45,632 nt of DNA from Minisyncoccota bacterium (GCA_052034355.1 JBPOIQ010000049.1:1-45632), one strand, 5' to 3'. Shown: positions 5,769 to 35,116, counted from the stretch's first letter. The notes: generated by a model from the letters alone, not told the origin. A program made the numbers and translations.

Positions 5769-6383
5769 TCAAGATTGCCGCAAACGCGCGAGATATTTGA
5801 TGAAGACCGTGCTGCCGGAACGTGAGGACGTGCGTTCGAAGGCGCGAACCTCGAACCGCGGGGCGAGAAAGGAACGAAACTCGTCGTCGCCGAAGTAGCT
5901 GAAATACCGGCGCGCGCCCTGATACTCATCGTCCGCCATGAGCCCCTCGCCATCCCCTTCTTTCACCGCGCAGGCAAAAATGCCGGACGGTTCGAGATGG
6001 CGCGCGATCCGTTCAAGCGCGTTCGGAATTCCAGCCTTCGAAAGATGCAGCAGGCAAGCATTCGCCCAAATGCCGTCGAAACGACAACCGAGCTCGAACG
6101 TCTCAAGATCGAGTTGTTCGGCCCGGAGACCCTTGCTGCGACACAGCTCGACCATTCGAGACGACAGGTCGCCGCACAGGACGCTGAAGCCCCGTTTCGA
6201 AAACTCCTGGGCGTAGTTCCCAGGACCGGAACCAAGATCCAGAATCCGCGCGCCCGCTGGCAACGTACTAAGGAAACGATCGACGTGCGTCATGTTGTAT
6301 CGACGCATGTGCCGTTCGAATTCGACATCGAACGCACGATAGTGCTCGTCGTACGTTGCCATGGTCTCTTGCTTGTCTTTCAT
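5769..6383 (-). CDS. Class I SAM-dependent methyltransferase
   Basis: ORF 5769..6554 trimmed to the ATG at 6383 (MKDKQETMATYDEHY), which removes the overlap with the flippase gene. The SAM motif I is ILDLGSGPGNYA. Confidence 0.75.
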   Translation of the reverse strand: MKDKQETMATYDEHYRAFDVEFERHMRRYNMTHVDRFLSTLPAGARILDLGSGPGNYAQEFSKRGFSVLCGDLSSRMVELCRSKGLRAEQLDLETFELGCRFDGIWANACLLHLSKAGIPNALERIARHLEPSGIFACAVKEGDGEGLMADDEYQGARRYFSYFGDDEFRSFLAPRFEVRAFERTSSRSGSTVFIKYLARLRQS

Positions 6384-6480
6384 GAAACCTCCGCGATAGT
6401 TCACAAAAGAACACGGAACGATCCTAGCGCACGCGCAGAAGACCGGCAATGCACGGCGACCGAAACGGCGCTCCCACCCG

Positions 6481-7851
6481 TCACCGTATGCGCGCAGCGT
6501 CTTCGTCTGAGGTTTCCGGAACAAACGTGGTAAGGGATCGATTCGAATGATCAAGGCGGCGAAGTTCGTTGCGCAAAAAGAACATGCCGTTTATGGCCAC
6601 GATTCCGTTACTAGCAAGTTTTGCGAGAATCACGCCGAGCAAGCCGCCAAAAGTCACGCCAGCAACAATCGAAACGATTCGAAAAATACTTGTAACGGTG
6701 CCGCTGACATATAGCGGTCGAATCATTTTTTGTGCCTGAGCCACATAGGCTCCATACGTCATCGGCACCCAAAATATCAAATTCAAAGAGATGATTTGCG
6801 AGTAGTGAAGCGCGGAAAGATATTGAGGAAACAACCAGCGAAAAACGATGGGAGCCGCGACAATATAAACGGTTGCCGCCAAAAGTCCCGCGCAAGCCAA
6901 TTGAAAAAAACGCAGAAAGAGCGAACGTTCAAGCGAGTTCGCGTCTTTGTTCGCGATTTTCGGCGAAATCGTCGCGCTTATGTTTTTAGCGAACTTTTTA
7001 ATACGATCCGGCATGAGGCTGGCAAACGTATACGTTGCCAACTGCCCCGCTCCGACGTAGTGAAAGACAACGACATTGTCGCACTGCTGCGCAACAAGAG
7101 ACAGGACATTGATGACGCTCAGGTGCTTCCCAAAACCCCAGGCTTCAGCATACGCCTGCGATTGTCCTTCGACGGGGGCATAGATCCTCAGCGTTCTCCA
7201 GTAAAAATAGGCCGTAAGCAGAAGGTTGCTGAGTCCATAGACCACCACAAGCCCGATAACGCTCCGGAAGAGGAGCATGGACAGAGCCATGGCTATCGAG
7301 TAAAGAGCCGTGTTGACGATGGAAAACCGCGTCGCTGTCTTAAAGTCTTTTTTTCCAGACAAAAAAGCCGTGTAGGTATTGAGCGCCCAGGCAGGAGGAA
7401 CCGTCACGCCCAAGATAGCCATCGAAAGGGCGAGCAGTGTGTTACCGCGCACATAGAGATACGCCGCGATCGCAAACATCAATGCCCCGCTCAGCGAATT
7501 CCATACCGCTTGCGCGCGTACCACCTTCCTCAAAATACCGTCGTCGCCGCGGGCAACGGCGCGGGCAACGGCGGTGTTCATGCCAGTGAGCGACAAGGAG
7601 CTGGCAAGTCCGACAAGGGAGAGCGCGTAGCGATAGATGCCGTAAGTTTCCTTATCGAGCACATTGGCCGCGACGACCGCGACCGCAACTCCTAAAACGC
7701 TCGTCACGAAAAAATTCAAACCCGACCAGGCGCCGTTTTTTACCAGGTAGGTCATGTCCGTCCTGACGTGCTTCTGCGACCAAGCAAGCAAGACTTGCAA
7801 TACCGATCTTAAACGAGGATGCATCGATTTTAGTGTAAGCCAGGCATTCAT
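6481..7851 (-). CDS. Polysaccharide/oligosaccharide flippase, Wzx-like (MOP superfamily)
   Basis: 456 aa and about 12-14 TM helices with the typical Wzx layout. It lies between a glycan-related gene and a methyltransferase. An alternative start at 7755 (MTYLVKNGAWSG) is possible. Confidence 0.75.
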   Translation of the reverse strand: MNAWLTLKSMHPRLRSVLQVLLAWSQKHVRTDMTYLVKNGAWSGLNFFVTSVLGVAVAVVAANVLDKETYGIYRYALSLVGLASSLSLTGMNTAVARAVARGDDGILRKVVRAQAVWNSLSGALMFAIAAYLYVRGNTLLALSMAILGVTVPPAWALNTYTAFLSGKKDFKTATRFSIVNTALYSIAMALSMLLFRSVIGLVVVYGLSNLLLTAYFYWRTLRIYAPVEGQSQAYAEAWGFGKHLSVINVLSLVAQQCDNVVVFHYVGAGQLATYTFASLMPDRIKKFAKNISATISPKIANKDANSLERSLFLRFFQLACAGLLAATVYIVAAPIVFRWLFPQYLSALHYSQIISLNLIFWVPMTYGAYVAQAQKMIRPLYVSGTVTSIFRIVSIVAGVTFGGLLGVILAKLASNGIVAINGMFFLRNELRRLDHSNRSLTTFVPETSDEDAARIR

Positions 7852-7890: not shown

Positions 7891-9372
7891 CTATCCGTTC
7901 TTTTCAAGCAGCAGTGAGAGCGTCCGCCTGAAGTCCCCGCTGCCGCCACGATAGGACTCAAGGCGACCGGCAAGCTTCGGAGCGGCATCGCGGCAGAGCG
8001 AGAGAAGCCGCCCCGCAGGATCTTCTCCGGCCGCGTCGAATGCGTCAGCCAACCCATTGATCACCATCCCCTCCCCAAAATCCATTGATGTCTTTAAGAC
8101 GAATACCGGGCGCATCAACGAAATCGTGTCGTAGAGGAAGGTCGAATACACGCCTGCCACCGCGTGGATGCGACCGAGAACGGGCAGATGATTCGGAACG
8201 GCCTCAACCTCGTCAACAGAGCGGTCAAGCAAGCCATAAAGTCGCAACTGTTTTTTTTCATCCCAGTCCGGACGCGTCTTAAACCAAACCTTCACGCGGC
8301 TGGTTGAGAGCAGGCGTTCGAGTATGGACCGAACTTCGTCAAAGGGCGCGTCCGTTTCAAACGGCACGAGAAGCCCGATTGTTTCGGAATCTTTCGGCGG
8401 CGCATATAGCGCGCCCGCCGATGCCTCGTTCGCGTTCTTCGGATTACCGCCGATGCGAAGCTCCTCGGCACTGAAATTCGTTCCGAGCCGTAGCAGCTCT
8501 TTTTTCCAATACGGACTCCACACGAACAGCGCGTCCGGACGCACGTCTTGGCCGACGGGCGTACCCGAAGCAAGCCAACCCGCATGATACTTCGTGAAAT
8601 GGCCGTGCTGGAACGCATAAAAAGGAATCTTTTGAAGCCGTGCCGCCATGCACATTTCTTGATAGTATCTCGTATCATCGATGGCCAGAACGGCGTCCGG
8701 ACGAATGCGTTTCAGGACGCTCCTGTAACACGCGATTTCAAAACGAGATACGGCCGCGCCGCGCAGAAGCGACTCGACAAGCTTGCGAACAAACGGGCGA
8801 TCGCCTTCTCGGAATTCCGTGCACGGAAGCGCTCGCGCGATTTTTCTCGAACGCGCGGCGCAGGCGCAAAAGGCATGCCGTAACGACCCGAGAAACTGAA
8901 AAGCTTCCCGGTAGACAGCCGATCGGCCGCGCTGGACCGCCTGCGTCAGCATCGTCTTCCCCATCTGCGTATGAAACGTTTCCGTAAAAGAAACGCGATG
9001 ATCCCTCAAAAAACGGTAGAGGCCGTCAATACGAAAATCATGATCCCCCTCGGAACTCACCTTATCGACGCTGAAAACCAGCACGTTTTTTCTCCCCCGA
9101 ACGATAACCGCCCACAACGTGAGCACAAGCGCGGCGAAGCCTGAAAACCAATGCTTCAACGCCGCGAAGATACGCGAAATTCCAACCTTGTTTGTAACAG
9201 CTTTGCCCGAACTCGCGTTTCCTTTGAAGGCGATGAAAATTTTTGCCTGCCGCCACTGCAGATAATCCGCACCATCAATGGAAAAAAGGGACGAAAGTTC
9301 GGGGTGAGCCGCGATCATCCGGTTAAACGTTTTTAAATTTTGCAAGGCGATTGCCAGTGCGTCCATAGTCAT
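7891..9372 (-). CDS. Hypothetical GT-B-like surface carbohydrate biosynthesis protein (TagF/KpsS-like transferase?)
   Basis: 493 aa with one internal TM (FAALVLTLWAVIV). The C-terminal half has QHGHFTKYHAGW, VWSPYWKKELL and AGVYSTFLYDTISLMRPVFVL, which resemble phospho/glycosyl-transferase C-terminal motifs. It sits first in an operon with Wzx. The family assignment is uncertain. Confidence 0.5.
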   Translation of the reverse strand: MTMDALAIALQNLKTFNRMIAAHPELSSLFSIDGADYLQWRQAKIFIAFKGNASSGKAVTNKVGISRIFAALKHWFSGFAALVLTLWAVIVRGRKNVLVFSVDKVSSEGDHDFRIDGLYRFLRDHRVSFTETFHTQMGKTMLTQAVQRGRSAVYREAFQFLGSLRHAFCACAARSRKIARALPCTEFREGDRPFVRKLVESLLRGAAVSRFEIACYRSVLKRIRPDAVLAIDDTRYYQEMCMAARLQKIPFYAFQHGHFTKYHAGWLASGTPVGQDVRPDALFVWSPYWKKELLRLGTNFSAEELRIGGNPKNANEASAGALYAPPKDSETIGLLVPFETDAPFDEVRSILERLLSTSRVKVWFKTRPDWDEKKQLRLYGLLDRSVDEVEAVPNHLPVLGRIHAVAGVYSTFLYDTISLMRPVFVLKTSMDFGEGMVINGLADAFDAAGEDPAGRLLSLCRDAAPKLAGRLESYRGGSGDFRRTLSLLLEKNG

Positions 9373-15582: not shown

Positions 15583-16899
15583 ATGAACGGCGATCTTCGC
15601 CGATATAAATTGGCTCTTTTGGCCGCTGGCGATCTGCTTGCGGCGTTTTCGGCATTGTTCCTGACCATCACGCTTCGGTACGGGCGTACGGAGCTGCTTT
15701 CGGAATGGCCGGATCATGCCTGGCCCTTCACTGTCGTGTTTATTCTGTGGCTCGCGATTTTTTACATCGTCGGCCTCTACGACTTCGACGCCCTGCGCAG
15801 CCGCATCGAGCTGCTCGGCCGCGCGGCCGAATCCCTGGGTGCAGCCTTTCTCGTCTCCATGGCGGTTTTCTACTTCACGCCGGGTGTCGGCATCACGCCA
15901 AAAACGAACCTGATCATCGTTCTTGTCGTTTTTGCCGTCCTCTTCCTCGGATGGAGAATGCTGACGATGCACCTCTTCTCCCGCGAACGTTTCCGCCTGC
16001 GCGTCTTGTTCCTAGGCGGCGGCGAGGAAGCGCGTACGCTCAGCACTGTTCTTGAAAGCAATCCCCACGTGGGCTACACGTCCGTCGGCGTCGTCGAGGA
16101 GGTAAATGACGACGCTCTTCCGAGGTGCGATGTGATCGTTGTCGCGCGCACGATGCAGGGTCACACGGACGTGACGGCGCGCTTGTATCGCAAGTTTTTC
16201 CAGAAAGTCGCGATCATTGATCTTCCGAATTTCTACGAGAAAATCCGCCACTCGGTACCTGCTTCCGCGCTCGACGAGCGCTGGATTATCGACAATCTCG
16301 CGAACCAGGAAGGATCGATCTATGAACACGTAAAACACCTGGGTGACATGATCTGCGGGGTTCTTTTCGCCGTGCCGACCCTTCTTCTCTCCCCCGTGAT
16401 CGCCGCCGCGATTTGGATCGAAGACCGCGGACCGATCCTCTATCGCCAAACGCGCGTCGGAAAAGGCGGTGCGCTGTTCTCGATCGTGAAATTCCGCACG
16501 ATGCGCGTCGATGCCGAAAAGAACGGCGCCGCATTCGCGCAAGAAGGCGACCCGCGTGTCACGCACGTCGGCAGGTTCTTGCGCGCCTCACGCCTCGACG
16601 AGCTGCCGCAGGTATGGAACATCCTTCGCGGCGAAATGAGTTTTGTAGGCCCGCGCCCGGAACGTCCGGAGATCGAGGACGATCTGGCGAAGACGATCCC
16701 TCTGTTCCCCGTGCGTCATCTCGTACGCCCCGGCCTGACCGGTTGGGCGCAGGTGTCGGCTCCATATGCCGCCACGCACGAAGACCATCTGCTGAAGCTT
16801 CGCCACGATCTCTACTATCTGAAATACCGCTCGCTCGCGCTTGACGCTGCGATCGTCCTCAAGACAATCTATAGCGTCCTAAAAAGGAAGGGTCGCTGA
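15583..16899 (+). CDS. Polyprenyl-phosphate sugar-1-phosphate transferase (WbaP/EpsL-type initiating enzyme)
   Basis: 438 aa. It has N-terminal TM helices and a C-terminal bacterial sugar transferase domain ([53 protein letters not shown]). Confidence 0.9.
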
Positions 16900-17814: not shown

Positions 17815-20140
17815 GCGCCTGCGCGCCGGCTACGGCGAGAATGAGAATGAGCGGCTCCGTCGGAAAACGATAGCGCGCGAGCGGTTCGAATCCTTCGAAC
17901 GCTTGCAAACGATGCAGCCCGCCAAACATCATCGTCGCAAAAGCGAAGAGAATCGCGAGCATGAAACCGATCTTTGCCTCGCGCGGAAGCTTGCCGCGCC
18001 AAAGGCCGACCAGGGCAAGGAATAAAATGAACCAATGCGTGAGCACGAGAAACATCTTAACCAACACCTGACGCAAAGGCTGCGCCGCCATGAAGTATCC
18101 CGGTTTCAAGGACAGGTGGTACACGACATCACCGCCAGGATTTGTTCTGCCCTCAATCGGCTCCCCCGCTCCCACATCGCTCAGCCGATGCGGAAAGCGC
18201 CAATACAGGTAGGTACCTTCGACATACAGATGCCAGCGCGAAGGCGCGAACAAAAATTCGACAAGTGTCGGTTCGAACAAAGCTTGTTCATAGTTCTTTG
18301 CGACAAGCGGCGCCTGCGTCAATGCGTGCTTTTTTGCAATAGAAGCATTGCGCAAGGAGATGCCACCGAACGCCAGAAGCGTTGGAAGCACGAGCAGGAG
18401 CGCCAATTTCCAGGAACGCTTCGAAACGAGCGCCCAGGCGCCGAATACAACGGCTTGATAAAAACCGAACTCGCGCGTGAGGCCAGCCAGCATAAAACCG
18501 ACACCCGCAACCAAAGCATTGTGCAACTGCCGGCGCTGCACGGCAAAGACCGCGCACACGATCGCGCTCGTCAACAAGAACGTGTAGAGCGTCTCGGTAT
18601 AGAGGATGCCGCTTTCAAGAACCGAAGGCGTATAAACGGCGAGCAGTACTCCGGCAAGCAGGCCTTCCTTGCGTCCAAGCCAGGTACGAGCCGCGAGAGC
18701 GCCGATAAAAACAGTTGCCGATGAGAGTGCTGCCTGGACGAGACGAATCCACAACAAGTCATTGCCGAACAAGCTGCGAATGGCGGCGAGAAGATATGGG
18801 TATCCCACCGAAAAAAAACGGAGATCCTCTTTCGGCACGGCATCGACGAGCCCGCGGACATAGTCGGACAAGCCGAGATAGGCCGGCCCATCGCCTCCGT
18901 CAATTTTCAGTTGCGGAAAATACGCGACATACAGGACGCGGATTGCAAAAGCAAGGCAAGCTACCGCGATTTCCACCCGATAGCGCTCATACCACGCCTC
19001 GGAGCGCTTCGATTCCGGAAGATCCTGAAGCACGTCCATCGCACGATGCGTCCATGAACAACCCTCCGCCAGCGCCAACGCCTCGCGTTCCAACTCTTCT
19101 TTTTTTACGGGAGACTCCGCAAGCGTCGAGAGCGCCCGGGCAAGAGCGGTTGGATCCGACGGCGACACAAAAACGACCGAGCGCTCGGAAAGCACTTCGC
19201 GCACGGAAGGTGTACTTGTGGCGATGATCGCCTTCCCGGCGGCGAGATATTCGAACAACTTGAGCGGCGAAAGGAATTCCGCGGCGTGACGGCCGGAGGC
19301 ACGGGTCGGCAGGACAGCCGCGTCCGCCGCGCGAAGATACAGAGGCACCTGCGCATGCGGCACCATGCCGGTAAACGTCACGTTCGTCAGCCCGAGCGCT
19401 TGAGCGCGCGTCTCAAGCCGCGCCAGATCATCCGGACGACCGCCAACGAAAAGAACGCGCGTCGACGGTTGGACGTGCGCGCAGGCTTCAAGCAAATCAT
19501 CCGCCCCTTTATAGGGATACAAGTGCCCCGTATACACGGCGATAAACGCGCGTTCCGGCAAACCGAGTTTCGCCCGCGCTTCCGCTTTCGTCTCTTTCAC
19601 TTCAAACTTTGCCGCATCAACGCCGTCATGCGCGGTTTTCACCGACGTTTCCGGAACACCGGCGGAGACGAACGCGCGCCGCAATCCTTCTGTCACCGCG
19701 ACAACGCGAGAGGCGCGCTTCCAAAGCCAGCGGTGGAAACGCGTGACGCGCTCGGGAAAATTATGCGCTTCAAACACGGAGCGTGCGCGCGCGTCGATCC
19801 CGACAAACCACGGATCGCGGGTATAGACCACATCGGGCCCGAACTGGCGAACAACACGAGACGCTTTCAACCAAAACTGCGGAAGGTTGAGCCAGAGCGC
19901 AAATCGCCCGAAAAACCGGTCGTGCCAAATAAAATCAAGAATCGGAACCTGCACGATCTTGAAGGAGGGTTCCATCTTGTAATACTCCCACGGCGTCGCC
20001 TGAAGCGGATTCGTCCTGCGCGGCACCACAAGGCATACGTCATGACCGTTGCGCGCAAAAGCCTGGCACATCTCCATAATCTGGAGGCCATGGGCTTTTT
20101 CGGTGGGTAATCGGATGTCCGCAACGTACGCGATTTTCAT
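17792..20140 (-). CDS. Fusion protein: N-terminal GT4 glycosyltransferase plus C-terminal GT-C-like (ArnT/PMT_2-like) membrane domain
   Basis: ORF 17792..20617 trimmed to the ATG at 20140 (MKIAYVADIRLPTEKAHGLQIMEM). The first ~385 aa form a GT-B/GT4 domain. The rest is a multi-TM domain beginning YVAYFPQLKIDGGDGPAYLGLSDY, typical of GT-C first-loop acidic motifs. Confidence 0.75.
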   Translation of the reverse strand: MKIAYVADIRLPTEKAHGLQIMEMCQAFARNGHDVCLVVPRRTNPLQATPWEYYKMEPSFKIVQVPILDFIWHDRFFGRFALWLNLPQFWLKASRVVRQFGPDVVYTRDPWFVGIDARARSVFEAHNFPERVTRFHRWLWKRASRVVAVTEGLRRAFVSAGVPETSVKTAHDGVDAAKFEVKETKAEARAKLGLPERAFIAVYTGHLYPYKGADDLLEACAHVQPSTRVLFVGGRPDDLARLETRAQALGLTNVTFTGMVPHAQVPLYLRAADAAVLPTRASGRHAAEFLSPLKLFEYLAAGKAIIATSTPSVREVLSERSVVFVSPSDPTALARALSTLAESPVKKEELEREALALAEGCSWTHRAMDVLQDLPESKRSEAWYERYRVEIAVACLAFAIRVLYVAYFPQLKIDGGDGPAYLGLSDYVRGLVDAVPKEDLRFFSVGYPYLLAAIRSLFGNDLLWIRLVQAALSSATVFIGALAARTWLGRKEGLLAGVLLAVYTPSVLESGILYTETLYTFLLTSAIVCAVFAVQRRQLHNALVAGVGFMLAGLTREFGFYQAVVFGAWALVSKRSWKLALLLVLPTLLAFGGISLRNASIAKKHALTQAPLVAKNYEQALFEPTLVEFLFAPSRWHLYVEGTYLYWRFPHRLSDVGAGEPIEGRTNPGGDVVYHLSLKPGYFMAAQPLRQVLVKMFLVLTHWFILFLALVGLWRGKLPREAKIGFMLAILFAFATMMFGGLHRLQAFEGFEPLARYRFPTEPLILILAVAGAQALGRGSKR

Positions 20141-20227
20141 AGGGACTTCGTGTGCTATTCTGCCAAGAAACCGGCTTTTTGGCCAGCCGTTGACAATCGA
20201 GGACACGGCTCCGATAATGGAAAAGTT

Positions 20228-20728
20228 ATGATACAGATGCTTATCGCGCTTGAACGCCTCTTCCTGCGCGTTTGGAACGGTTTTGCCCTGCGCTGGCGTT
20301 CCCGCTATTGGTCCCACCATTTCGGCGCCTGCGGAACCAGTCTTGCCGTCGGCGGACCGCTCACGGTCAAGTGGCCTGAGCATGTCCGTGCCGGTACCGG
20401 AGTCCTGATCGCGGAAGGCGTCTATCTCAACGCAAGAGCGACGATCCAGCTCGACGACCATGTACGCTTGTCGTCTTTCGTACGCATCAATACCGGAACA
20501 CTCGACGTGCAGACGCCTCCTGAAGCGCGGTCGGCGCACATCGACAAGCCGGTCCATATAGAAAAGTACGCCTGGCTCGCGACCGGCGTCATGGTGAACC
20601 CTGGTGTCACGATCCACGAAGGCGCCGTCGTGGGAGCCGGTTCAGTTGTTGTAAGCGACCTGCCCGCGTACACTTTGTGCGTCGGTGTGCCCGCCAAACC
20701 GATTCAAGACCTTCCTCGATCCGCGTGA
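20228..20728 (+). CDS. Left-handed beta-helix (hexapeptide) acyl/acetyltransferase, WcaF/MAT-like
   Basis: ORF 20150..20728 trimmed to the ATG at 20228. Hexapeptide repeats include IEKYAWLATGVMVNPGVTIHEGAVVGAGSVVVSDLPAYTLCVGVPAKPI. Confidence 0.7.
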   Translation: MIQMLIALERLFLRVWNGFALRWRSRYWSHHFGACGTSLAVGGPLTVKWPEHVRAGTGVLIAEGVYLNARATIQLDDHVRLSSFVRINTGTLDVQTPPEARSAHIDKPVHIEKYAWLATGVMVNPGVTIHEGAVVGAGSVVVSDLPAYTLCVGVPAKPIQDLPRSA

Positions 20729-20746: not shown

Positions 20747-20768
20747 AAAGGCCGCGGAAGCGGCCTTT
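20747..20768. terminator. Bidirectional terminator hairpin between convergent genes
   Basis: AAAGGCCGC-GGAA-GCGGCCTTT. The T-run is stronger on the minus strand (after kdsC). Confidence 0.6.
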
Positions 20769-20783: not shown

Positions 20784-21446
20784 TCAACCAAGCGTACGCG
20801 CGCGATCGACGATCTGTTGCCAAAAACCCTTGGCTCCAAGCACCAACTCGATCGCTTCGCGCACCGCGCCGTTCCCACCATTGCGGGTGGAAACGAACAT
20901 GACTTCCTTGAGCACCTCAGGCGCCGCGTCGGCCGGGGCGGCGGAAAAACCAACCCGACGTAGAAGGGCGAGGTCCTGAATGTCGTTGCCCATGAAGAAC
21001 ACCTCATCCCAACCCGCTCCATGAAGCGCTAGAAGCCCCTCGACTTCGGCGACCTTGTCCGCGACCCCGAACCGAAGGTCGACGCCCAGATCCTTGGCGC
21101 GCTGACGTACCGCCGGCGAGCTCCTTCCGGTCATGAAGACGACGGGGATGTCGTGGCGCAAGCACTCCTTTACGGCAATACCGTCGCGCGTGTAGAAGCG
21201 GTAGCCTTCGATCCGTCCGTCAGCAGCGCTGGCGAGATAGTGCATCTCTTCCACGGCGCCGTCGGCGTCGCACGGAACGAGTCTCTTGACCGTGCCGGCG
21301 ACTTCGAGGCCGAAAAGCAACCCTTGCTCGTTTTCCGGTCGCCCGAAAATCGTGACGTGATCCGACGTGTGTACGCCGTCGACATCCGTCACGACGAGCC
21401 GTACCTTGCTCGCAGCCTGTTCCAGATTACGCTCTCGATCGCTCAT
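20784..21446 (-). CDS. kdsC: KdsC-family HAD phosphatase (3-deoxy-ulosonate phosphate phosphatase) with a ~35-aa insertion
   Basis: Motifs are VVTDVDGV (I), MTGRSS (II), DK, FMGNDIQDL (IV) and the C-terminal RNGGNGAVREAIELVL. These match the YrbI/KdsC family. Confidence 0.75.
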   Translation of the reverse strand: MSDRERNLEQAASKVRLVVTDVDGVHTSDHVTIFGRPENEQGLLFGLEVAGTVKRLVPCDADGAVEEMHYLASAADGRIEGYRFYTRDGIAVKECLRHDIPVVFMTGRSSPAVRQRAKDLGVDLRFGVADKVAEVEGLLALHGAGWDEVFFMGNDIQDLALLRRVGFSAAPADAAPEVLKEVMFVSTRNGGNGAVREAIELVLGAKGFWQQIVDRARTLG

Positions 21447-22218
21447 GGGTTTCCTCCGATGTTACAGGTTCACGTTCGAATATAGCGCGAACGCGTTCCA
21501 ATTCCTCGATCGTATTCACGCCAAGATTGCGAAAATGTCCTTTCACCATGCGCATGCGGTATCCATGTTCCAGAATACGCATCTGCTCAACCCCCTCGAC
21601 GCATTCGATAGGCGTTCTCGGCAGAGAAAGGAATTCCGTCAAGAAGGAGCGGCGCATCGCCATCGCGCCGATCACGTGATAGTCATGAAATGGCGCGTCC
21701 TTGTGGTGACGAAACGGCACGGCTGCGCGCGTGAAGAAAAGAGCATTGTCGTTTTTGTCCATCAAGACTTGTACAATGCTCGGTTCGTGCAACATACCCA
21801 TATCCTCAATCCGGTCAGCGAGTCCGGCGACATGAAGGCTCTCGTCCTCAAGAAGCAGGGCGACGCATCGATCGATCGCCTCTGCAGGATAGAGTGGCTC
21901 GTCGCCCCACACATTCACCACGATATCCGGGGTAAAGTCAAGGAATTGCTGAACGGCATAGGCGACGCGATCCGTACCCGTCGGCAGTTCCGAAGGCGAC
22001 ATGATGACGGGGACACCAAGAGAACGCACGACTTCGGCGATGCGTTCGGAATCTGTCGTAACGACGATCGCGTCGAGCGATTTCGCGCGCAGCGTCCTTT
22101 CAACCGTCCGTTGAATCAGCGGCTTCCCCGCCAGATCCTTCAGCATCTTCTCGGGAATTCGGGTCGAACCGAGGCGGGCAGGAATCACTCCCAGCACTTT
22201 TTTATGAAAATCTGCCAT
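21427..22218 (-). CDS. kdsB: 3-deoxy-manno-octulosonate cytidylyltransferase-like (CMP-KDO synthetase family)
   Basis: ORF trimmed to the ATG at 22218 (MADFHKKVLGVIPARLGSTRIPEKML). GTDRVA, VNVWGDEPL and EQMRILEHG align by eye with E. coli KdsB motifs (IPARYASTRLPGKPL, GTERLA, VNVQGDEP, EQLRVL). Confidence 0.85.
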   Translation of the reverse strand: MADFHKKVLGVIPARLGSTRIPEKMLKDLAGKPLIQRTVERTLRAKSLDAIVVTTDSERIAEVVRSLGVPVIMSPSELPTGTDRVAYAVQQFLDFTPDIVVNVWGDEPLYPAEAIDRCVALLLEDESLHVAGLADRIEDMGMLHEPSIVQVLMDKNDNALFFTRAAVPFRHHKDAPFHDYHVIGAMAMRRSFLTEFLSLPRTPIECVEGVEQMRILEHGYRMRMVKGHFRNLGVNTIEELERVRAIFEREPVTSEETHERSRA

Positions 22219-22226
22219 AAAAACCG

Positions 22227-23081
22227 TTACAATGTGCGTCCGACGGCCTGCGCCACGAGACGCATCCCCTTCATCATCTCGGAAAACGTCTCCGGCAAAA
22301 GCGCCTGCGCGCCATCGCACAGCGCGTGCTCCGGATCATGGTGTACCTCGACGATCAAGCCATCGGCGCCGACGGCGACGGCCGCGCGAGAAAGCGCGGG
22401 AATGATATCGGGTCGTCCTGCCGCGTGGCTCGGGTCGACGATGACGGGCAGGTGGGTTTCTTTTTTCAGGACGGGAATAGAGGAAATGTCGAGCGTGGCG
22501 CGCGTCGACTTCTCGAACGTCTGAATACCGCGCTCGCAAAGCACGACGTTCGTGTTGCCGCCATGCAAAATGTACTCCGCAGCCGACAACAGTTCAGACA
22601 CCGTAGACCCGGCGCCGCGCTTGAGTAAGATCGGCTTTCGAAGCTGGCCAAGTTCCTTCAATAAGGAAAAGTTCTGCATGTTGCGCGCGCCGACCTGAAG
22701 CACATCGATGTCGTACTTCAGAAACAAAGGGATCGCGCGTGCATCCATAATTTCCGTCACGATCGCGAGACCTGTTTTCTCCCGAACTTTTTTCAAAATA
22801 TTCAAACCTTCCTCTTCAAGGCCTTGAAAGCTGTACGGCGAACTACGAGGCTTATACGCACCACCGCGCAAGGCCGTTGCGCCAGCTGCTTTGACCTGTT
22901 CGGCAACCTTTGTCACCTGGTCTTCAGACTCGACGGCACAAGGACCGGCAATGACGACAAGCTTTTCCGAACCAAAAACCCCGCCAGTTATTGCAACTTT
23001 CGTCGTATCTGCCACCGCCCCTCGGGAAACCAGCGGATGTGCGCTCTCTTTTTTTCCGCAAACTGTCGCTGTAGAACCCAT
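22227..23081 (-). CDS. Type I-beta DAHP-synthase-like PEP aldolase (DAH7PS/KDO8PS family; DAH7PS-type motifs)
   Basis: ORF trimmed to the ATG at 23081. Motifs are VIAGPCAVES, RGGAYKPRSSPYSFQG, LQVGARNMQNF, LLKRG, VLCERGIQTFE, VIVDPSHAAG and EVHHDPEHALCDGAQAL. The KPRS loop is the DAH7PS version; KDO8PS has KANRS. Confidence 0.85.
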   Translation of the reverse strand: MGSTATVCGKKESAHPLVSRGAVADTTKVAITGGVFGSEKLVVIAGPCAVESEDQVTKVAEQVKAAGATALRGGAYKPRSSPYSFQGLEEEGLNILKKVREKTGLAIVTEIMDARAIPLFLKYDIDVLQVGARNMQNFSLLKELGQLRKPILLKRGAGSTVSELLSAAEYILHGGNTNVVLCERGIQTFEKSTRATLDISSIPVLKKETHLPVIVDPSHAAGRPDIIPALSRAAVAVGADGLIVEVHHDPEHALCDGAQALLPETFSEMMKGMRLVAQAVGRTL

Positions 23082-23220
23082 AATTGCTCGGAAATGCGAG
23101 TATAGGAACAATAACCATTTACCATCTTCTTGACAAGGCTGCGCAGGCAGCGCTCACAGACGTTTCTCCTCAGGCCTTCCGCGAAAGGCGGTCGCCTAAA
23201 ATAACCACTGCGAACTTCCA

Positions 23221-31764: not shown

Positions 31765-32922
31765 ATGCCACAGCGTCGAAAAGTGCTTTTTCTCGTGACG
31801 TCTTCCGCTTGGGGCGGCGCCGAACGCTATGTTTCCCGCTTGGCCCGCGAAGCTTCCAACGAGTTTGACGTGACTGTCGCTGCGGGCCATTCACCGAACG
31901 GAGAGCTTTTTTCATCGCTGCCGTCGAACGTTCACACACTTGAAATACCGGAACTGCGGCATCCGATTTCGCCTCTCCACGATTTGCTCGCTGTCCGAAC
32001 GCTGCGCCGCCTGATTGATCGCGAAGGTTACGACATCATCCACACCAACAGCAGCAAGGCCGGACTCGTCGGCGCGCTTGCCGCGCGCTGTTCAAAGCAT
32101 CGACCCGACGTCGTCTACACGGCGCACGGCTGGGGTTTTCTCGAACGCCGCTCGCCCCTTTTCCGACTTCTGCTTCTTTGGAGTGAAAAAATGGCTGCGC
32201 GTTTTAGAAGCGCCACGATCGTGCTTTCCGACGCCGAGCGCGATATCGCTCTGCAAAACAAACTCGCTGCCAGGAAAAATCTTGCCGTGATTCCACTCGG
32301 CATTGATCGCGACGAGATTGCTTTTCTGGATCGTGACTCCGCGCGCGCACGGCTGGAAGAGCTGTGCGGAACGCGGCTCGATCGCCTCGTACTCGGCACG
32401 ATTGCCAATGCGTATCCCGCGAAGAATCTGCCGATGCTGTTTGAAGCCTTCGAAGGTCTTGCGAGCGCATTTCCGGATCTCGACCTCGTCGTGATCGGCG
32501 ACGGTCCCGAGATGCCGCGTTTGCGCGCCCTCCACAACGCGCTCCCCCACAGAGATCGCGTGTTTTTGCCGGGAAGCGTGAAAGAAGCCGCGACGCTTTT
32601 GAAAGCCTTCGACGTTTTTGTTCTCCCCTCAACCAAGGAAGGAATGCCGTGGTCGATTCTTGAAGCCTCGCTGGCGGAACTCCCCATCATCGCCACCTGC
32701 GTCGGTGCTTTGCCGGAACTCATCACTGACCGTCAAACGGGTCTTCTTGTAAAAGCTGGCGACCTCTCCGCCCTCCGACGCGCGATCCATGACGTCCTTG
32801 CTGATCGTACGCTCTACCAGGAACTCAAAAGCGGCGCCCCGCGCATTGCGGAACACCGCTCGGGAAACGTCATGATCGAAAGCGTTCTTGCGCTCTATCG
32901 CTCGCTTAACCGCCGTTCGTGA
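31765..32922 (+). CDS. Glycosyltransferase family 4
   Basis: 385 aa. VLFLVTSSAWGGAERYV ... PSTKEGMPWSILEASLAELPIIATCVGALPELITDRQTGLLVKAGD. Confidence 0.85.
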   Translation: MPQRRKVLFLVTSSAWGGAERYVSRLAREASNEFDVTVAAGHSPNGELFSSLPSNVHTLEIPELRHPISPLHDLLAVRTLRRLIDREGYDIIHTNSSKAGLVGALAARCSKHRPDVVYTAHGWGFLERRSPLFRLLLLWSEKMAARFRSATIVLSDAERDIALQNKLAARKNLAVIPLGIDRDEIAFLDRDSARARLEELCGTRLDRLVLGTIANAYPAKNLPMLFEAFEGLASAFPDLDLVVIGDGPEMPRLRALHNALPHRDRVFLPGSVKEAATLLKAFDVFVLPSTKEGMPWSILEASLAELPIIATCVGALPELITDRQTGLLVKAGDLSALRRAIHDVLADRTLYQELKSGAPRIAEHRSGNVMIESVLALYRSLNRRS

Positions 32923-35116
32923 CGATCGTCTCGCGCTGCGTGGCGATCGATTCCACCAAATCCAGCTTCTCAGGATAGAGCGCGCGCGCTTCGCGGATGA
33001 TCGCGTCGCTTTTTGCTTTATCGCCCAGCGCCCAAGCGCCGATTGCACCCACGAGATCCCACTGAAGATTGCGGATATCGGAAGCGACCGAGGCCTTTTG
33101 CAGTTCGACAAGATCCTTCCAACGACGCTGGTTCAACAGATGCAGCGTGCCGTACTCGACCTGGTCCCAAGCGTCTTGATCGTTCTTGATGCCGGGTTTT
33201 TGCGCCAGGTATTTTGCCGCTTCAATAGGGTCGCGGAATTCAAGCTGCCAACGCACCCACCAGGCATCGCCGAGTAGATTATCAGGGTCGAGTTCACGAT
33301 ACCGTTGAATGTGCTTTTCCGCTTCATCGAGCTGATTCTTTTCCCACGCAATCTGCGCAAGGATGATTTCGACCTCATGCCTGTTCGGCGATCGCGCGGC
33401 TGCGCGAGCGGCGGCGTCCTCGAGCGCCGCTTGCTGTTCGGGCGTACGCGGCCCGAAGCTCAGGTAGGCGGACGAAATCACGAGCGCCTGCACGTAGTCG
33501 TTCCGGTTATTGAAACGGCGATATTCGTCGTCAGCCAAATCTTGCAGAATCGGAAGATACGGCCCTTGGAGATATTCTCCGCGCGCTTGGCTCAGATGCG
33601 ACATCACGGCGCGAATATCGCGCTCATAGTACGGCGATTCCTTTTTACGCAACTCCGCGAGCATGCCGTTCCATTCTTCGGCTGTGCGACCCTGCTGCGA
33701 CAACGCCATGATCATCTGCGACGTCAGTTTCGCCGAGCGGATGGTCGTCGAAACGGTATAGAGACACCAGACGCTCGCAAAAGCGGCGATCAGCGCGAGC
33801 GGAACGGCGGCCTGCGTCGTCTCGTCAGACCCCTCTTCGCGCTCCTCCCGCGAAGCGGCATCAGCCGCGACCAAGGAGAAAATGAAGAAGAGCGCCAAAT
33901 AGGACATCGGCGTTTCGAAAATGAAAAGGTTCGTGCCGACCTGGGAGAAGGCCGCGATCACGAGACCGCCACCGAGCACCCAATCCTCGCGCTTTTTTGA
34001 CACAGCCAGGCGCACAGCGAACGCGAACACCGCGGCATACGCCAAGAAGCCCAGTATGCCAAGATTGTGCAGCACCTCCAGAACGAGGTTGTGCGGGCGG
34101 TCTTGCCGCGTTTCGTACTCGCCGAACACCAGCGTCTTAGGATCGTAGTTGTAATAGTAGCCGCTCTCAAAATTCTCGGGCCCCCAGCCGAGCACCGGTT
34201 TTTGCGTGATTCCCTTCACGACGTTTTCCAGCAAGAATTTGCGGGATCCGCTCGTTTCCTGGAAGTACTGGATGGACAAGCGGGAATCGTACAGCCAGCG
34301 CTTGAACGGATAGACCTGGTTGCCGATCAAGTACGCAACGATTGCGAGCACGACAGCGCCAAGGCTGATCAAGCTGAATTTTCGAGCGCGCTTGCCGCCG
34401 CGCACTGCCGCGATCAACGTCGCGGCCAGAGCACCCAAGAGCACGCCCAAGAGCGCCCCCTTCGATTTCGTGCTGACAATACCGACCATCACGACAACAC
34501 CCGAAGCGAGCCAGAGCCAGCGCGAAGGCGTCTTCCAAGAACGGTACGCAAGCCACGCCGCAAGAAAGAGATGCGGCACGAGATATTGGCCGAGATAACT
34601 GGCGTTCCCGAGCGTGGCGGCGCCTCGAGTGCCGACGACGCCAGCTGGAGGAAACGCCACCTGGATCAATGCATGCAGTGAAAGAATGATCGCCGAGATG
34701 GTTGCCGCGATAACCGGTTGCGCGACGACTTTGCGCCACATCGCGCCAGCCATCAGGAAGAAAGCAAGGAGGTGGTACTGAAAGAACATTCCCGTCAAAC
34801 GATCCGGCTTCGACCAAAAACTCCGATGCAGGTTATCGCCCAAGAACATCGACAAGGTCGCGACGGCGAAGTACGCAAGTATCGCGTAGAAAAAAGCCGA
34901 TTTCTCCGGACGGAACTCCTTGCGGCGGAACGCAAGCAAGACGTAACACGGAAAAAGCAGCTCGACGAGAATTTCAAAGCTCAAAATTTTGCCCGTCACC
35001 CAAGGATACAGATGGCTGAGCCAGACGATGAACGGGATCGCGAACACCGCGAACAAGCCGTACCGGACGAGTTTTATCAGGAACGAATCGAGCGGTTTCA
35101 ACGGGATGTTCTGCAT
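32906..35116 (-). CDS. O-antigen ligase/polymerase-like (Wzy_C) membrane protein with a C-terminal TPR-like repeat domain
   Basis: 736 aa. About 10-12 TM helices are followed by a loop with the PHNLVLEVLHNLGILG motif typical of the Wzy_C/O-antigen ligase family. A ~270-aa helical repeat tail follows. Its start overlaps the murC stop by 19 nt. Confidence 0.75.
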   Translation of the reverse strand: MQNIPLKPLDSFLIKLVRYGLFAVFAIPFIVWLSHLYPWVTGKILSFEILVELLFPCYVLLAFRRKEFRPEKSAFFYAILAYFAVATLSMFLGDNLHRSFWSKPDRLTGMFFQYHLLAFFLMAGAMWRKVVAQPVIAATISAIILSLHALIQVAFPPAGVVGTRGAATLGNASYLGQYLVPHLFLAAWLAYRSWKTPSRWLWLASGVVVMVGIVSTKSKGALLGVLLGALAATLIAAVRGGKRARKFSLISLGAVVLAIVAYLIGNQVYPFKRWLYDSRLSIQYFQETSGSRKFLLENVVKGITQKPVLGWGPENFESGYYYNYDPKTLVFGEYETRQDRPHNLVLEVLHNLGILGFLAYAAVFAFAVRLAVSKKREDWVLGGGLVIAAFSQVGTNLFIFETPMSYLALFFIFSLVAADAASREEREEGSDETTQAAVPLALIAAFASVWCLYTVSTTIRSAKLTSQMIMALSQQGRTAEEWNGMLAELRKKESPYYERDIRAVMSHLSQARGEYLQGPYLPILQDLADDEYRRFNNRNDYVQALVISSAYLSFGPRTPEQQAALEDAAARAAARSPNRHEVEIILAQIAWEKNQLDEAEKHIQRYRELDPDNLLGDAWWVRWQLEFRDPIEAAKYLAQKPGIKNDQDAWDQVEYGTLHLLNQRRWKDLVELQKASVASDIRNLQWDLVGAIGAWALGDKAKSDAIIREARALYPEKLDLVESIATQRETIVTNGG

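What the first reader, a model, noticed from the sequence alone, without database searches (positions are those of the whole stretch)
20784..23081. DAHP-synthase-type aldolase in the KdsA position of a kdsB-kdsC operon: possible CMP-activated 3-deoxy-heptulosonate (or noncanonical Kdo) pathway
Seen: three minus-strand genes are tightly packed, with an 8-nt gap at 22219-22226 and a 20-nt overlap at 21427-21446. The first is unmistakably of the type I-beta DAH7PS/KDO8PS family. However, it carries RGGAYKPRSSPYSFQG, VGARNMQNF and CERGIQTFE, the DAH7PS versions of these loops. The second and third are good KdsB (IPARLGSTRIPEK, GTDRVA, VWGDEP) and KdsC (DVDGV, TGR, GNDxxD, GGNGAVRE) homologues. Established: KDO8P synthases carry a strictly conserved KANRS motif where DAH7P synthases have KPR(S/T), and this loop contributes to A5P versus E4P selection. 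The canonical Kdo route is KdsD-KdsA-KdsC-KdsB. Inference: either a DAH7PS-like enzyme has been recruited to make KDO8P, or the operon makes and CMP-activates a 7-carbon 3-deoxy-ulosonic acid from E4P + PEP. No arabinose-5-phosphate isomerase (SIS-domain KdsD) and no shikimate-pathway gene is visible in this window.
Basis: partly seen in the sequence, partly recalled or inferred. Interest (0 to 1): 0.68.

Follow-up and report, generated by a model that had tools for sequence, protein, structure and literature searches.

The report
DAHP-synthase-type sugar-acid operon in CPR bacteria
A small uncultured (Patescibacteria/CPR) bacterium carries a conserved three-gene operon in which an enzyme that normally starts aromatic amino-acid synthesis sits with a phosphatase and an unusual CMP-transferase, most likely to make a new activated acidic sugar for its cell surface.

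Summary
Three minus-strand genes (aldolase 22227-23081, KdsB-like 21427-22218, KdsC-like HAD 20784-21446) form one unit between a promoter-like site and a hairpin terminator.

The aldolase is a type I-beta DAH7P synthase, not a KDO8P synthase: 424 bits against DAH7PS models versus 125 bits against KDO8PS models. It has KPRS, a short beta7-alpha7 loop and all metal, PEP and E4P ligands.

The clustering is not chance:
- All seven CPR-type aldolase loci with enough flank carry the trio.
- None of 159 ordinary I-beta DAH7PS loci has a KdsB, KdsC or KdsD homolog.
- 44% of the ordinary loci have shikimate or aromatic-pathway neighbours.

- The transferase has Trp where KdsB and sialate synthetases have the sugar-binding Gln (WGDEP in 113 of 120 homologs). 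Its RHxGxYxYR motif is also rewritten.
- A CPR KdsB linked to a KpsF isomerase keeps the canonical residues.
- The HAD has a roughly 45-residue insert.
- An undescribed GT-B protein (7891-9372) travels with the trio.

Best reading: E4P + PEP gives DAH7P, then DAH, then CMP-DAH, for a Wzx/Wzy-type surface glycan (about 0.5). The main rival is ordinary Kdo made by a recruited DAH7PS-type enzyme (about 0.3). Whole-genome checks and assays are still needed.

The parts
23108..23136 (-). Promoter-like site (TTGTCA-17-TATTGT) about 27 nt upstream of the aldolase ATG. It lies in the 198-bp divergent intergenic region shared with the GFO/IDH/MocA gene.
   Evidence: Consensus scan, (4 sites found vs 0.8 expected in the region). 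Sequence read. A consensus match only.
22227..23081 (-). Unadorned type I-beta DAH7P-synthase-type aldolase (284 aa) with no N-terminal regulatory domain. Metal ligands are C48, H219, E245 and D256. PEP ligands are R72, K77, Q129, A132/R133, K154 and R184. The E4P motif is K77-P78-R79-S80. Clade signatures are Y76, A195 and A260. Q187 replaces an otherwise invariant Arg, and D124 is a 1-aa insert.
   Evidence: Ligand list from PMC6362186. dN/dS 0.05-0.10.
21427..22218 (-). KdsB-like CMP-ulosonate synthetase (263 aa) of a divergent 'WGDEP' subfamily. W104 replaces the sugar-binding Gln, and HVIGAMAMR (182-190) replaces RHxGxYxYR. The CTP-side residues (PARxxSxRxxxK, GDEP) are kept.
   Evidence: Role of the Gln from PMC2901514. 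Motif names from PMC7717453. dN/dS 0.12.
20784..21446 (-). KdsC/YrbI-type HAD phosphatase (220 aa) with all four HAD motifs. It has a roughly 45-residue insert (about residues 33-79) between motif I and the E..F..DG segment, the position of a C1 cap.
   Evidence: Below all NCBIfam cutoffs (101 vs 208; 94 vs 107). dN/dS 0.08-0.15.
20747..20768 (-). Intrinsic-terminator-like hairpin (9-bp stem with 6 GC pairs, then a T run) 16 nt after the HAD stop codon. It closes the three-gene unit.
7891..9372 (-). Undescribed 493-aa GT-B-fold protein ('U family'), the candidate ulosonate transferase. Homologs lie directly next to the trio in L005, L179, L007, L177 and L178, next to the aldolase in L011, and next to KpsF in L095.
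   Evidence: No Pfam or NCBIfam family. Homology. 533 representatives. AlphaFold2 pLDDT 94.3. Only generic GT-B matches, TM 0.4-0.57. No PDB sequence hit. Weak GT4 and TagF-like hits. The function is inferred from co-location only.
6481..7851 (-). Wzx-type flippase (Polysacc_synt). It lies next to the U-family gene here and next to trio plus U in related loci.
   Evidence: synteny.
5769..6554 (-). SAM-dependent methyltransferase next to the flippase. Methyltransferases accompany the module in all related loci.
   Evidence: L007 has a NanM-like sugar O-methyltransferase.
15583..16899 (+). Polyprenyl glycosylphosphotransferase (Bac_transf / EPS_sugtrans), the initiating enzyme of the lipid-linked glycan.
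   Evidence: TIGR03025, 332 bits vs cutoff 296.
32906..35116 (-). Wzy_C (O-antigen ligase/polymerase-like) membrane protein. It is conserved next to the module in related loci.

Best explanation
The three genes are one operon of a Patescibacteria (CPR, Parcubacteria/Paceibacteria-like) bacterium. The operon supplies a CMP-activated 3-deoxy-2-ulosonic acid to a Wzx/Wzy-type surface-glycan pathway.

Proposed steps:
1. The unadorned DAH7PS-type aldolase condenses PEP with erythrose 4-phosphate, which the non-oxidative pentose-phosphate pathway supplies without any dedicated isomerase. The product is DAH7P.
2. The KdsC-type HAD, whose inserted cap-like segment may reshape the substrate site, removes the 7-phosphate to give 3-deoxy-D-arabino-heptulosonate (DAH).
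3. The WGDEP-type cytidylyltransferase couples DAH to CTP to give CMP-DAH. Its pocket has Trp in place of the Kdo/sialate-binding Gln and a rewritten RHxGxYxYR motif.
4. A GT-B transferase of an undescribed family, encoded 11 kb away here but adjacent in relatives, adds the sugar to an undecaprenyl-linked repeat unit. That unit is then flipped and polymerised or ligated.

Shown: gene content, family placement, residue states, conserved synteny, purifying selection and the contrast with ordinary DAH7PS loci.

Inferred: the substrate (E4P), every enzymatic step, the role of the GT-B protein, and the organism's lack of a shikimate pathway.

Confidence that this is a CMP-ulosonate (Kdo-like) sugar pathway and not aromatic biosynthesis is about 0.85. 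Confidence that the sugar is the 7-carbon DAH, the figure given below, is about 0.5.
For: Aldolase family placement:
- It is DAH7PS by score (424 and 379 bits vs 125 for KDO8PS) and by PDB matches (A. pernix, P. furiosus and T. maritima DAH7PS at 1e-83 to 1e-87; KDO8PS at 1e-25 or worse).
- It is 53-65% identical to DAH7PS of many phyla.
- In the NJ tree it nests in DAH7PS, at distance 0.59 to generic DAH7PS and 1.77 to E. coli KdsA.

Aldolase active site:
- All residues listed as metal, PEP and E4P ligands of I-beta DAH7PS (PMC6362186) are kept.
- The whole K77-P78-R79-x-S81-P82-x-x-F85-Q86-G87 loop is invariant in 18 clade members.
- The 2-residue 'AN' insert and the 11-residue beta7-alpha7 extension of KdsA are absent.

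Synteny:
- The trio is present in the window, L005, L179, L010, L007, L177 and L178, at aldolase identities of 59-86%.
- It is absent from 159 ordinary DAH7PS loci, of which 70 have aro, pheA or tyrA neighbours.
- No KpsF/KdsD lies within 10 kb of any of the seven loci.

Transferase:
- W replaces the Gln that double-H-bonds the sugar in KdsB. Mutation of that Gln in CMP-sialate synthetase costs 200- to 47,000-fold in kcat/Km (PMC2901514).
- W is present in 113 of 120 nearest homologs.
- The 'substrate binding motif' RHxGxYxYR (PMC7717453) reads HVIGAMAMR here.
- The CPR KdsB next to a KpsF/GutQ isomerase (L095; TIGR00393 at 239 bits) keeps QGDEP and HLGIYGY.

Other:
- dN/dS is 0.05-0.15 for all three genes.
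- Promoter-like and terminator-like sites bracket the trio.
- The surrounding cluster is glycan assembly: a polyprenyl glycosylphosphotransferase (Bac_transf/EPS_sugtrans family), Wzx, Wzy_C, GT4s, methyl- and acetyltransferases.
Against: - No assay and no whole genome. kdsD/kpsF, a true kdsA or aro genes could lie elsewhere in the genome.
- Unadorned I-beta DAH7PS is known to be promiscuous. From my own knowledge, the P. furiosus enzyme accepts A5P and R5P; the paper is Schofield et al. 2005, whose title is confirmed. E4P-type loops therefore do not exclude A5P.
- In the window's inner clade the Arg invariant in 173/173 ordinary I-beta DAH7PS (GIRTFE) is Q, N or S. E. coli KdsA has Asn at that position. 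A260 also matches E. coli KdsA. Together these could hint at a shift toward a KDO8PS-like pocket.
- The same U-family transferase occurs in the KpsF-linked locus (L095, 29% identity). This argues for chemically similar sugars.
- Two long CPR contigs (890 kb and 525 kb) carry the W-type transferase plus HAD but show no aldolase within 8 kb, and none is found in the hit lists. The aldolase is therefore not an obligatory partner.
- DAH has not been reported in any glycan. A full-text search found only shikimate-pathway uses.
- Monophyly of the wider CPR-type aldolase clade has only 48% bootstrap support.
Confidence: 0.5

Rival explanations
1. Ordinary Kdo made by paralog displacement. The DAH7PS-type enzyme has been recruited to condense PEP with arabinose 5-phosphate, with KpsF/KdsD encoded elsewhere in the genome. 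The HAD and transferase then process KDO8P and Kdo, and the glycan carries Kdo as in capsules and O-antigens of Gram-negative bacteria.
For: - Some CPR bacteria do encode a KpsF/GutQ-family isomerase next to a KdsB and a U-family homolog (L095). A5P and Kdo-type chemistry therefore exist in the group.
- The U family is shared by both cluster types.
- The two cluster types are complementary in gene content: isomerase only versus aldolase plus phosphatase only.
- The invariant DAH7PS Arg187 is lost in the window's inner clade. Position 187 is Asn and position 260 is Ala in E. coli KdsA.
- The P. furiosus enzyme shows substrate ambiguity (own knowledge; reference confirmed).
- The transferase passes one NCBIfam KdsB subfamily cutoff.
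Against: - KPRS, rather than KANRS, and the short beta7-alpha7 loop are strictly conserved.
- There is no KpsF within 10 kb in seven loci, nor anywhere in the 45.6-kb window.
- The transferase lacks the Kdo-binding Gln and the RHxGxYxYR motif, and the KpsF-linked CPR KdsB retains both.
- Clade B aldolases (Zambryskibacteria type) keep Arg187 yet show the same linkage.
- A. aeolicus KDO8PS, recalled from memory and not aligned here, has neither Asn at position 187 nor Ala at position 260. If so, the apparent convergence is not a family trait.
Confidence: 0.3
2. A different ulosonate. The aldolase uses another aldose phosphate (for example ribose 5-phosphate, 2-deoxyribose 5-phosphate or a threose/tetrose variant). 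Alternatively, DAH7P or DAH is modified (oxidised, methylated, aminated) before CMP activation. In either case the activated sugar is neither DAH nor Kdo.
For: - There are clade-specific changes at positions that are more than 90% conserved in ordinary DAH7PS (F76Y, N195A, S260A, R187Q).
- The transferase pocket is heavily rewritten and the HAD carries a cap-like insert.
- Methyltransferases, a 2OG-Fe(II) oxygenase-like gene and oxidoreductases recur near the module.
- W-type transferase plus HAD pairs exist without a nearby aldolase.
Against: - None of the accessory genes is conserved in all loci. Only the trio, U and Wzx are.
- The E4P-binding loop is unchanged.
- The operon order, aldolase then transferase then phosphatase with overlapping or near-abutting ends, suggests that the three act in sequence without an intervening enzyme.
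Confidence: 0.12
3. Chance or hitch-hiking. The aldolase is a normal first enzyme of aromatic amino-acid synthesis that merely lies beside unrelated Kdo genes.
For: - It has high identity to bona fide DAH7PS and a full catalytic set.
- The whole genome was not examined.
Against: - The linkage is conserved across at least four divergent lineages and is absent from 159 ordinary loci (Fisher 4e-7 to 1e-10).
- There is no aro neighbour in 8 CPR-type loci, against 44-53% of ordinary loci.
- The genes share a tight operon, with an 8-nt gap and a 20-nt overlap.
- The enzyme has no regulatory domain.
- A Trp/Tyr-permease-family transporter lies in the same window.
- From general knowledge, CPR genomes lack amino-acid biosynthesis.
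Confidence: 0.03

Closest known systems
Canonical CMP-Kdo pathway (KdsD, KdsA, KdsC, KdsB) of Gram-negative bacteria
   Same: - The logic is the same: a PEP-dependent aldolase makes a phosphorylated 3-deoxy-2-ulosonate, a C0-type HAD removes the phosphate, and a PF02348 cytidylyltransferase makes the CMP-sugar.
- The enzyme superfamilies are the same at each step.
- The product feeds a surface glycan.
   Different: - The aldolase belongs to the DAH7PS branch (KPRS, short beta7-alpha7 loop), not the KDO8PS branch (KANRS, long loop).
- No KdsD lies in the cluster.
- The transferase has Trp in place of the sugar-binding Gln and lacks RHxGxYxYR.
- The phosphatase has a roughly 45-aa insert.
- All three genes are fused into one operon.
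- The host is a CPR bacterium, which has no LPS pathway as far as is known.
Unadorned type I-beta DAH7P synthases of Pyrococcus furiosus and Aeropyrum pernix (PDB 1ZCO, 1VS1)
   Same: - The same minimal (beta/alpha)8 barrel without a regulatory domain.
- About 60% identity, and the best PDB matches.
- The same metal, PEP and E4P residues.
[quoted passage not shown] 2005; title confirmed).
   Different: - Those enzymes serve the shikimate pathway.
- They have Phe76, Arg187, Asn195 or Phe195, and Ser260, where the window protein has Tyr, Gln, Ala and Ala.
- They are not linked to a cytidylyltransferase or a phosphatase.
Kdn pathway of Bacteroides thetaiotaomicron (Kdn-9-P synthase, Kdn-9-P phosphatase, CMP-Kdn synthetase; own knowledge) and NeuB-type nonulosonate pathways
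   Same: - A three-enzyme set: synthase, KdsC-like C0 HAD phosphatase and CMP-transferase, used for a capsule or surface glycan.
- The window HAD scores almost equally against the Kdn-9-P phosphatase and KdsC models (95 vs 101 bits).
   Different: - The synthase there is NeuB family and uses a hexose 6-phosphate. Here it is DAH7PS family, with only a weak NeuB-model hit (45 bits).
- The products there are 9-carbon sugars.
DAH7PS paralogs dedicated to secondary metabolism (for example PhzC-type PA1901, and BagF/FevY)
   Same: A DAH7PS homolog is taken out of primary aromatic synthesis, lacks feedback regulation, and is embedded in a dedicated gene cluster (PMC6435475; NF041229 hit).
   Different: - Those paralogs still feed the shikimate or chorismate route to aromatic products.
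- Here the neighbours are a phosphatase and a nucleotidyltransferase, so the DAH7P skeleton itself would be the end product.

Membership tests
Type I-beta DAH7P synthase | Profile-HMM score above the curated cutoffs (PF00793; NF006421; TIGR01361) | tested here: met
   264.5 bits vs 25.5; 424 vs 335; 379 vs 268.
Type I-beta DAH7P synthase | Metal ligands Cys/His/Glu/Asp, PEP ligands, and the K-P-R-(S/T) E4P motif | tested here: met
   C48, H219, E245 and D256; R72, K77, Q129, R133, K154 and R184; K77-P78-R79-S80. Ligand list from PMC6362186.
Type I-beta DAH7P synthase | Arg of the GIRTFE loop, invariant in 173/173 reference sequences | tested here: not met
   Q187 in the window. The inner clade has Q, N or S at this position; clade B keeps R. 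The role of this Arg is not known to me.
Type I-beta DAH7P synthase | Catalyses PEP + E4P to DAH7P and feeds the shikimate pathway | not testable with these tools
   No assay is possible. Context argues against a shikimate role: 0/8 loci with aro neighbours vs 70/159 ordinary loci. The whole genome is not available.
KDO8P synthase (KdsA) | KANRS motif and extended beta7-alpha7 loop | tested here: not met
   Alignment with E. coli KdsA shows KP--R where KdsA has KANR, and an 11-residue gap opposite KdsA's LQCRDPFGAAS.
KDO8P synthase (KdsA) | Profile score above the curated cutoff | tested here: not met
   125.5 bits vs cutoffs 242 and 314.
CMP-Kdo synthetase (KdsB) | PF02348 fold, the N-terminal PARxxSxRxxxK CTP loop, and the GDEP Mg site | tested here: met
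   PF02348 at 157 bits; IPARLGSTRIPEK at 12-24; GDEP at 105-108.
CMP-Kdo synthetase (KdsB) | Gln of QGDEP, which double-H-bonds the sugar (Gln98 in L-CKS, Gln104 in CNS) | tested here: not met
   Trp104. W is present in 113/120 nearest homologs, and Q in all PDB KdsB sequences aligned. Role from PMC2901514.
CMP-Kdo synthetase (KdsB) | Substrate-binding motif RHxGxYxYR | tested here: not met
   HVIGAMAMR. Motif from PMC7717453.
CMP-Kdo synthetase (KdsB) | Equivalog model TIGR00466 above cutoff | tested here: not met
   146.9 vs 155.2. One subfamily model, NF003952, is passed (240.9 vs 193).
KDO8P phosphatase KdsC (C0 HAD, YrbI family) | HAD motifs I-IV (DxDGV; S/T; K; GDDxxD-like) | tested here: met
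   DVDGV at 21-25, TGR at 106-108, DK at 130-131, GNDIQD at 153-158.
KDO8P phosphatase KdsC (C0 HAD, YrbI family) | Capless C0 architecture and a score above the family cutoffs | tested here: not met
   A roughly 45-aa insert after motif I relative to E. coli KdsC. Scores are 100.9 vs 208 and 94.1 vs 107.
Canonical Kdo pathway | Arabinose-5-phosphate isomerase (KdsD/KpsF) available | tested here: inconclusive
   Absent from the window and from within 10 kb of seven loci. Present in a different CPR cluster type (L095). The rest of the genome could not be searched.
Known CMP-ulosonate glycosyltransferases (GT30 WaaA, GT99 WbbB, GT107 KpsC/S, sialyltransferases) | Sequence or fold match of the candidate transferase (7891-9372) | tested here: not met
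   - No Pfam or NCBIfam family.
- No PDB sequence hit for the family profile.
- Foldseek top hits are generic GT-B proteins: UDP-GlcNAc 2-epimerases, GT1 and MurG, at TM 0.4-0.57.

The most novel reading that the evidence does not exclude
CPR/Patescibacteria make a nucleotide sugar not described before, CMP-3-deoxy-D-arabino-heptulosonate. They would do so by diverting the first shikimate-pathway intermediate, in organisms that have no shikimate pathway, through a dedicated phosphatase and a Trp-for-Gln cytidylyltransferase. A new GT-B transferase family would then install it on their surface glycan. This would be the first 7-carbon member of the Kdo/sialic-acid class of CMP-activated sugars, and the first DAH7P synthase whose product is an end product rather than an aromatic precursor.
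Probability: 0.45. Interest if true: 0.82.

Novelty: new variant of a known kind. Interest (0 to 1): 0.7.

Why it matters
- CMP-activated 2-keto-3-deoxy sugars (Kdo, sialic and other nonulosonic acids) are key surface determinants, and only 8- and 9-carbon members are known. A 7-carbon member made from a central metabolite would extend that class.
- It would show how a primary-metabolism enzyme is re-used after its pathway is lost.
- It would give a first chemical handle on the almost unknown cell surface of CPR bacteria, which live attached to host cells.
- The Trp-for-Gln transferases and the U-family GT-B proteins are sizeable unannotated or mis-annotated families. They are currently named 'CMP-Kdo synthetase' or left unnamed.
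- Whichever sugar it turns out to be, automated annotation of these aldolases as aromatic-pathway enzymes, and therefore metabolic reconstructions of CPR genomes, would be misleading.

Tried and rejected
- **Genome scan.** I scanned species-representative genomes for relatives of the aldolase. I used these loci as a control set.
- **Metagenome scan.** I scanned metagenome contigs with a clade-restricted C-terminal alignment. The generic AAxAxGADG pattern saturated the scan again. It gave 80 more ordinary loci and no CPR-type one, so these also became controls.
- **Aldolase partner of the KpsF-linked (Q-type) CPR KdsB (L095, L183).** No aldolase lay within reach. Walking along the contig was not possible because only window proteins or homolog-search proteins can be looked up.
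- **Kdo-contact residues of KdsB.** The primary structure paper (PMC2790981) and the Subramaniam 1998 paper (PMC106857) are not held. I used secondary statements in PMC2901514 and PMC7717453 instead.
- **Literature searches.** I searched for DAHP synthase in CPR, for CMP-heptulosonate, for Kdo in Patescibacteria and for heptulosonic acids in glycans. Nothing relevant was found.
- **Fold search of the U-family model.** I hoped for a WbbB, KpsC or sialyltransferase match. Only generic GT-B matches came back.
- **First tree attempt.** It timed out, so I redid it with my own NJ code.
- **Apparent gap in L010.** The missing KdsB gene there is a gene-calling gap, not a pseudogene: the ORF is intact and has WGDEP.
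- **P0006, P0393 and P0395.** I rejected them as 'fused' relatives. They are ordinary DAH7PS with duplicated segments, probably assembly artefacts.
- **Signature set Y76/A195/A260.** I considered it diagnostic of the whole CPR clade, but the wider profile search shows that only A260 is consistent.

Full report
**Observation.**
- The aldolase is 22227-23081 (284 aa).
- The KdsB-like gene is 21427-22218 (263 aa).
- The KdsC-like HAD is 20784-21446 (220 aa).
- An 8-nt gap and a 20-nt overlap separate them.
- Gene calls on identical public metagenome contigs give the same three products.
- A sigma-70-like site (23136-23108) lies about 27 nt upstream of the aldolase ATG.
- A 9-bp GC-rich hairpin with a T run (20768-20747) follows the HAD stop codon by 16 nt.

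The trio therefore looks like a self-contained operon.

**What the aldolase is.**
- It scores 424 and 379 bits against the two I-beta DAH7PS models (cutoffs 335 and 268), and 125 bits against the KDO8PS models (cutoffs 242 and 314).
- Its best solved relatives are the unadorned DAH7PS of A. pernix and P. furiosus and the T. maritima enzyme (E 1e-83 to 1e-87). KDO8PS chains start at 1e-25.
- It is 53-65% identical to DAH7PS of Clostridia, Acidobacteriota, Nitrospirota and many other phyla.
- In an NJ tree rooted on E. coli KdsA it nests inside DAH7PS, at distance 0.59 to ordinary DAH7PS and 1.77 to KdsA.
- Aligned with E. coli KdsA, it lacks the 'AN' of KANRS and the 11-residue beta7-alpha7 extension.
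- All metal, PEP and E4P ligands listed for I-beta DAH7PS (PMC6362186) are kept.
- There is no N-terminal regulatory domain.

**A distinct subclade.**
- The nearest relatives (59-86% identity) are 270-290-aa proteins from Parcubacteria, Zambryskibacteria and 'Patescibacteria group' MAGs.
- Against 173 ordinary sequences, the window protein differs at positions that are at least 90% conserved: F76Y, N195A, S260A and R187Q, plus a one-residue insert at 124. The Arg at position 187 is invariant in all 173.
- Loss of R187 and the insert mark an inner clade with 82% bootstrap support.
- The wider clade has only 48% support. A profile search shows that only A260 is consistent across it.
- About 35 clusters of such unadorned proteins score above the first regulated DAH7PS in 5.8 billion proteins.

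**Linkage is conserved and specific.**
- Seven CPR-type aldolase loci with enough flank all carry a KdsB-like and a KdsC-like gene within a few kb, in most of them adjacent and co-directional. These are the window, L005, L179, L010, L007, L177 and L178.
- I used 159 ordinary I-beta DAH7PS loci from the two saturated collection scans as controls. None has a homolog of the window's or E. coli's KdsB, KdsC or KdsD.
- Of those controls, 70 overall, and 46 of the 86 that are at least 12 kb long, have an aroA/B/C/E/K, pheA or tyrA neighbour.
- None of the 8 CPR-type loci has such a neighbour.
- Fisher p for the KdsB/KdsC linkage is 1e-10, or 4e-7 if collapsed to four lineages.
- dN/dS is 0.05-0.15 for all three genes.

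Chance clustering is excluded.

**The partners are not canonical.**
Canonical KdsB has QGDEP (PMC7717453).
- That Gln (Gln98 of L-CKS, Gln104 of N. meningitidis CMP-sialate synthetase) makes a double hydrogen bond to the sugar. Its mutation costs 200- to 47,000-fold in kcat/Km (PMC2901514).
- Here it is Trp104, and 113 of the 120 nearest homologs also have Trp.
- The 'substrate binding motif' RHxGxYxYR reads HVIGAMAMR here.
- The protein misses the KdsB equivalog cutoff (147 vs 155) but passes one subfamily model.
- The few Q-type proteins at the bottom of the homolog list include P0237. Its locus (L095) carries a KpsF/GutQ-family isomerase (239 bits vs cutoff 204) and keeps QGDEP and HLGIYGY.

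CPR bacteria therefore have two cluster types:
1. KpsF plus a canonical KdsB.
2. The DAH7PS-type aldolase, a W-type transferase and a HAD.

The HAD has all four HAD motifs but falls below every KdsC cutoff. In the window and several relatives it has a roughly 45-residue insert after motif I, at the C1-cap position.

**A fourth component.**
- The 493-aa ORF at 7891-9372 has no Pfam or NCBIfam family.
- It has homologs immediately next to the trio in L005, L179, L007, L177 and L178, next to the aldolase in L011, and next to KpsF in L095.
- The family has 533 representatives.
- An AlphaFold2 model is confident (pLDDT 94.3) and has a GT-B fold.
- It gives only generic matches: UDP-GlcNAc 2-epimerases, GT1 and MurG at TM 0.4-0.57. 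The profile has no PDB sequence hit, and Pfam shows only weak GT4 and TagF-like hits.
- I propose, from co-location only, that it is the ulosonate transferase.

**Setting.** The window is a large glycan cluster containing:
- a polyprenyl glycosylphosphotransferase;
- Wzx and Wzy_C;
- several GT4s, including a GT4-PMT_2 fusion;
- methyl- and acetyltransferases;
- a GFO/IDH/MocA, N-acetyltransferase and DegT amino-sugar set.

It lies between MurB/SecA and MurC. That arrangement is shared with the related CPR loci.

**Mechanism and its uncertainty.** The general reading, a Kdo-like CMP-ulosonate pathway for a surface glycan, is well supported (about 0.85). Which sugar it makes is not settled.

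For E4P, and therefore DAH:
- The E4P loop K-P-R-x-S-P-x-x-F-Q-G is invariant in the clade.
- The KDO8PS-specific insertions are absent.
- No isomerase lies in any of the seven loci.
- The transferase pocket differs from KdsB exactly where Kdo is bound.
- The KpsF-linked transferase is canonical.

For A5P, and therefore Kdo:
- Unadorned DAH7PS is known to be promiscuous (own knowledge; Schofield 2005, title confirmed).
- The invariant Arg187 is lost, at a position where E. coli KdsA has Asn.
- The U family is shared between the two cluster types.
- The two cluster types have complementary gene sets.

Also unexplained: two long CPR contigs with the W-type transferase plus HAD show no aldolase.

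My estimates are DAH about 0.5, Kdo about 0.3, another or modified ulosonate about 0.12, and chance about 0.03.

**Novelty.** Full-text searches found no report of DAHP synthase in CPR, of a CMP-heptulosonate, of Kdo in Patescibacteria, or of a heptulosonic acid in a glycan. The system is a new variant of the Kdo/Kdn-type three-enzyme logic. It includes a divergent transferase subfamily and an undescribed GT-B family.

Noticed in passing
window 25690-28471 (+): Three genes for two-step citrate cleavage sit inside the glycan cluster, between a GT4 and a DegT/PseC-like aminotransferase. They are a succinyl-CoA-ligase-beta-like protein with a Citrate_bind domain, a succinyl-CoA-ligase-alpha-like protein, and a citryl-CoA lyase (NF004869, 231.7 bits vs cutoff 212). 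The same trio is in the same place in L010 and L002. It may be a dedicated acetyl-CoA supply for sugar N-acetylation.
   Followed up: partly
window 43372-44520 (-): A Trp/Tyr-permease-family amino-acid transporter (PF03222, 55 bits vs cutoff 22). This fits import, rather than synthesis, of aromatic amino acids by this organism.
   Followed up: no
window 471-2630 (-): A SecD/SecF-type protein with a PpiC-type peptidyl-prolyl isomerase domain inserted between the SecD P1 subdomains (PF13616/PF00639 at residues 295-405). The same architecture is seen in L005 and L179.
   Followed up: no
window 17792-20617 (-) and 20150-20728 (+): The 941-aa ORF is over-extended. The public gene call is 782 aa: a GT4 fused to a PMT_2-type membrane glycosyltransferase domain. 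Its 5' extension overlaps a real WcaF-like hexapeptide acetyltransferase on the other strand.
   Followed up: partly
L095 2433-4846 and 8001-10468; L183: A second CPR cluster type. It has a KpsF/GutQ isomerase, a U-family homolog, a canonical (QGDEP) KdsB, and a fused ATP-sulfurylase/APS-kinase, which suggests a sulfated, Kdo-containing glycan in some CPR bacteria. No aldolase or HAD lies within 8 kb.
   Followed up: partly
L091 (890-kb contig) and L093/L094 (525-kb contig): The W-type transferase and an insert-bearing HAD are adjacent, but no DAH7PS-type aldolase lies within 8 kb. No aldolase hit shares these contig lengths either. The source of the sugar phosphate in these lineages is unexplained.
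   Followed up: partly
L010 10880-11629: The public gene call misses an intact KdsB-like ORF (82% identical to the window's, with WGDEP) and calls a 123-aa ORF on the opposite strand instead.
   Followed up: yes
L177 1-999: A GmhA-like SIS_2 isomerase and a CTP_transf_like nucleotidyltransferase lie about 9 kb from the trio. They are heptose-type sugar-nucleotide genes in the same CPR glycan cluster, and they are not a KdsD.
   Followed up: no
proteins P0006, P0393, P0395: Database entries of ordinary DAH7PS with internally duplicated segments, which look like assembly artefacts. They inflate profile scores and top the hit list.
   Followed up: yes
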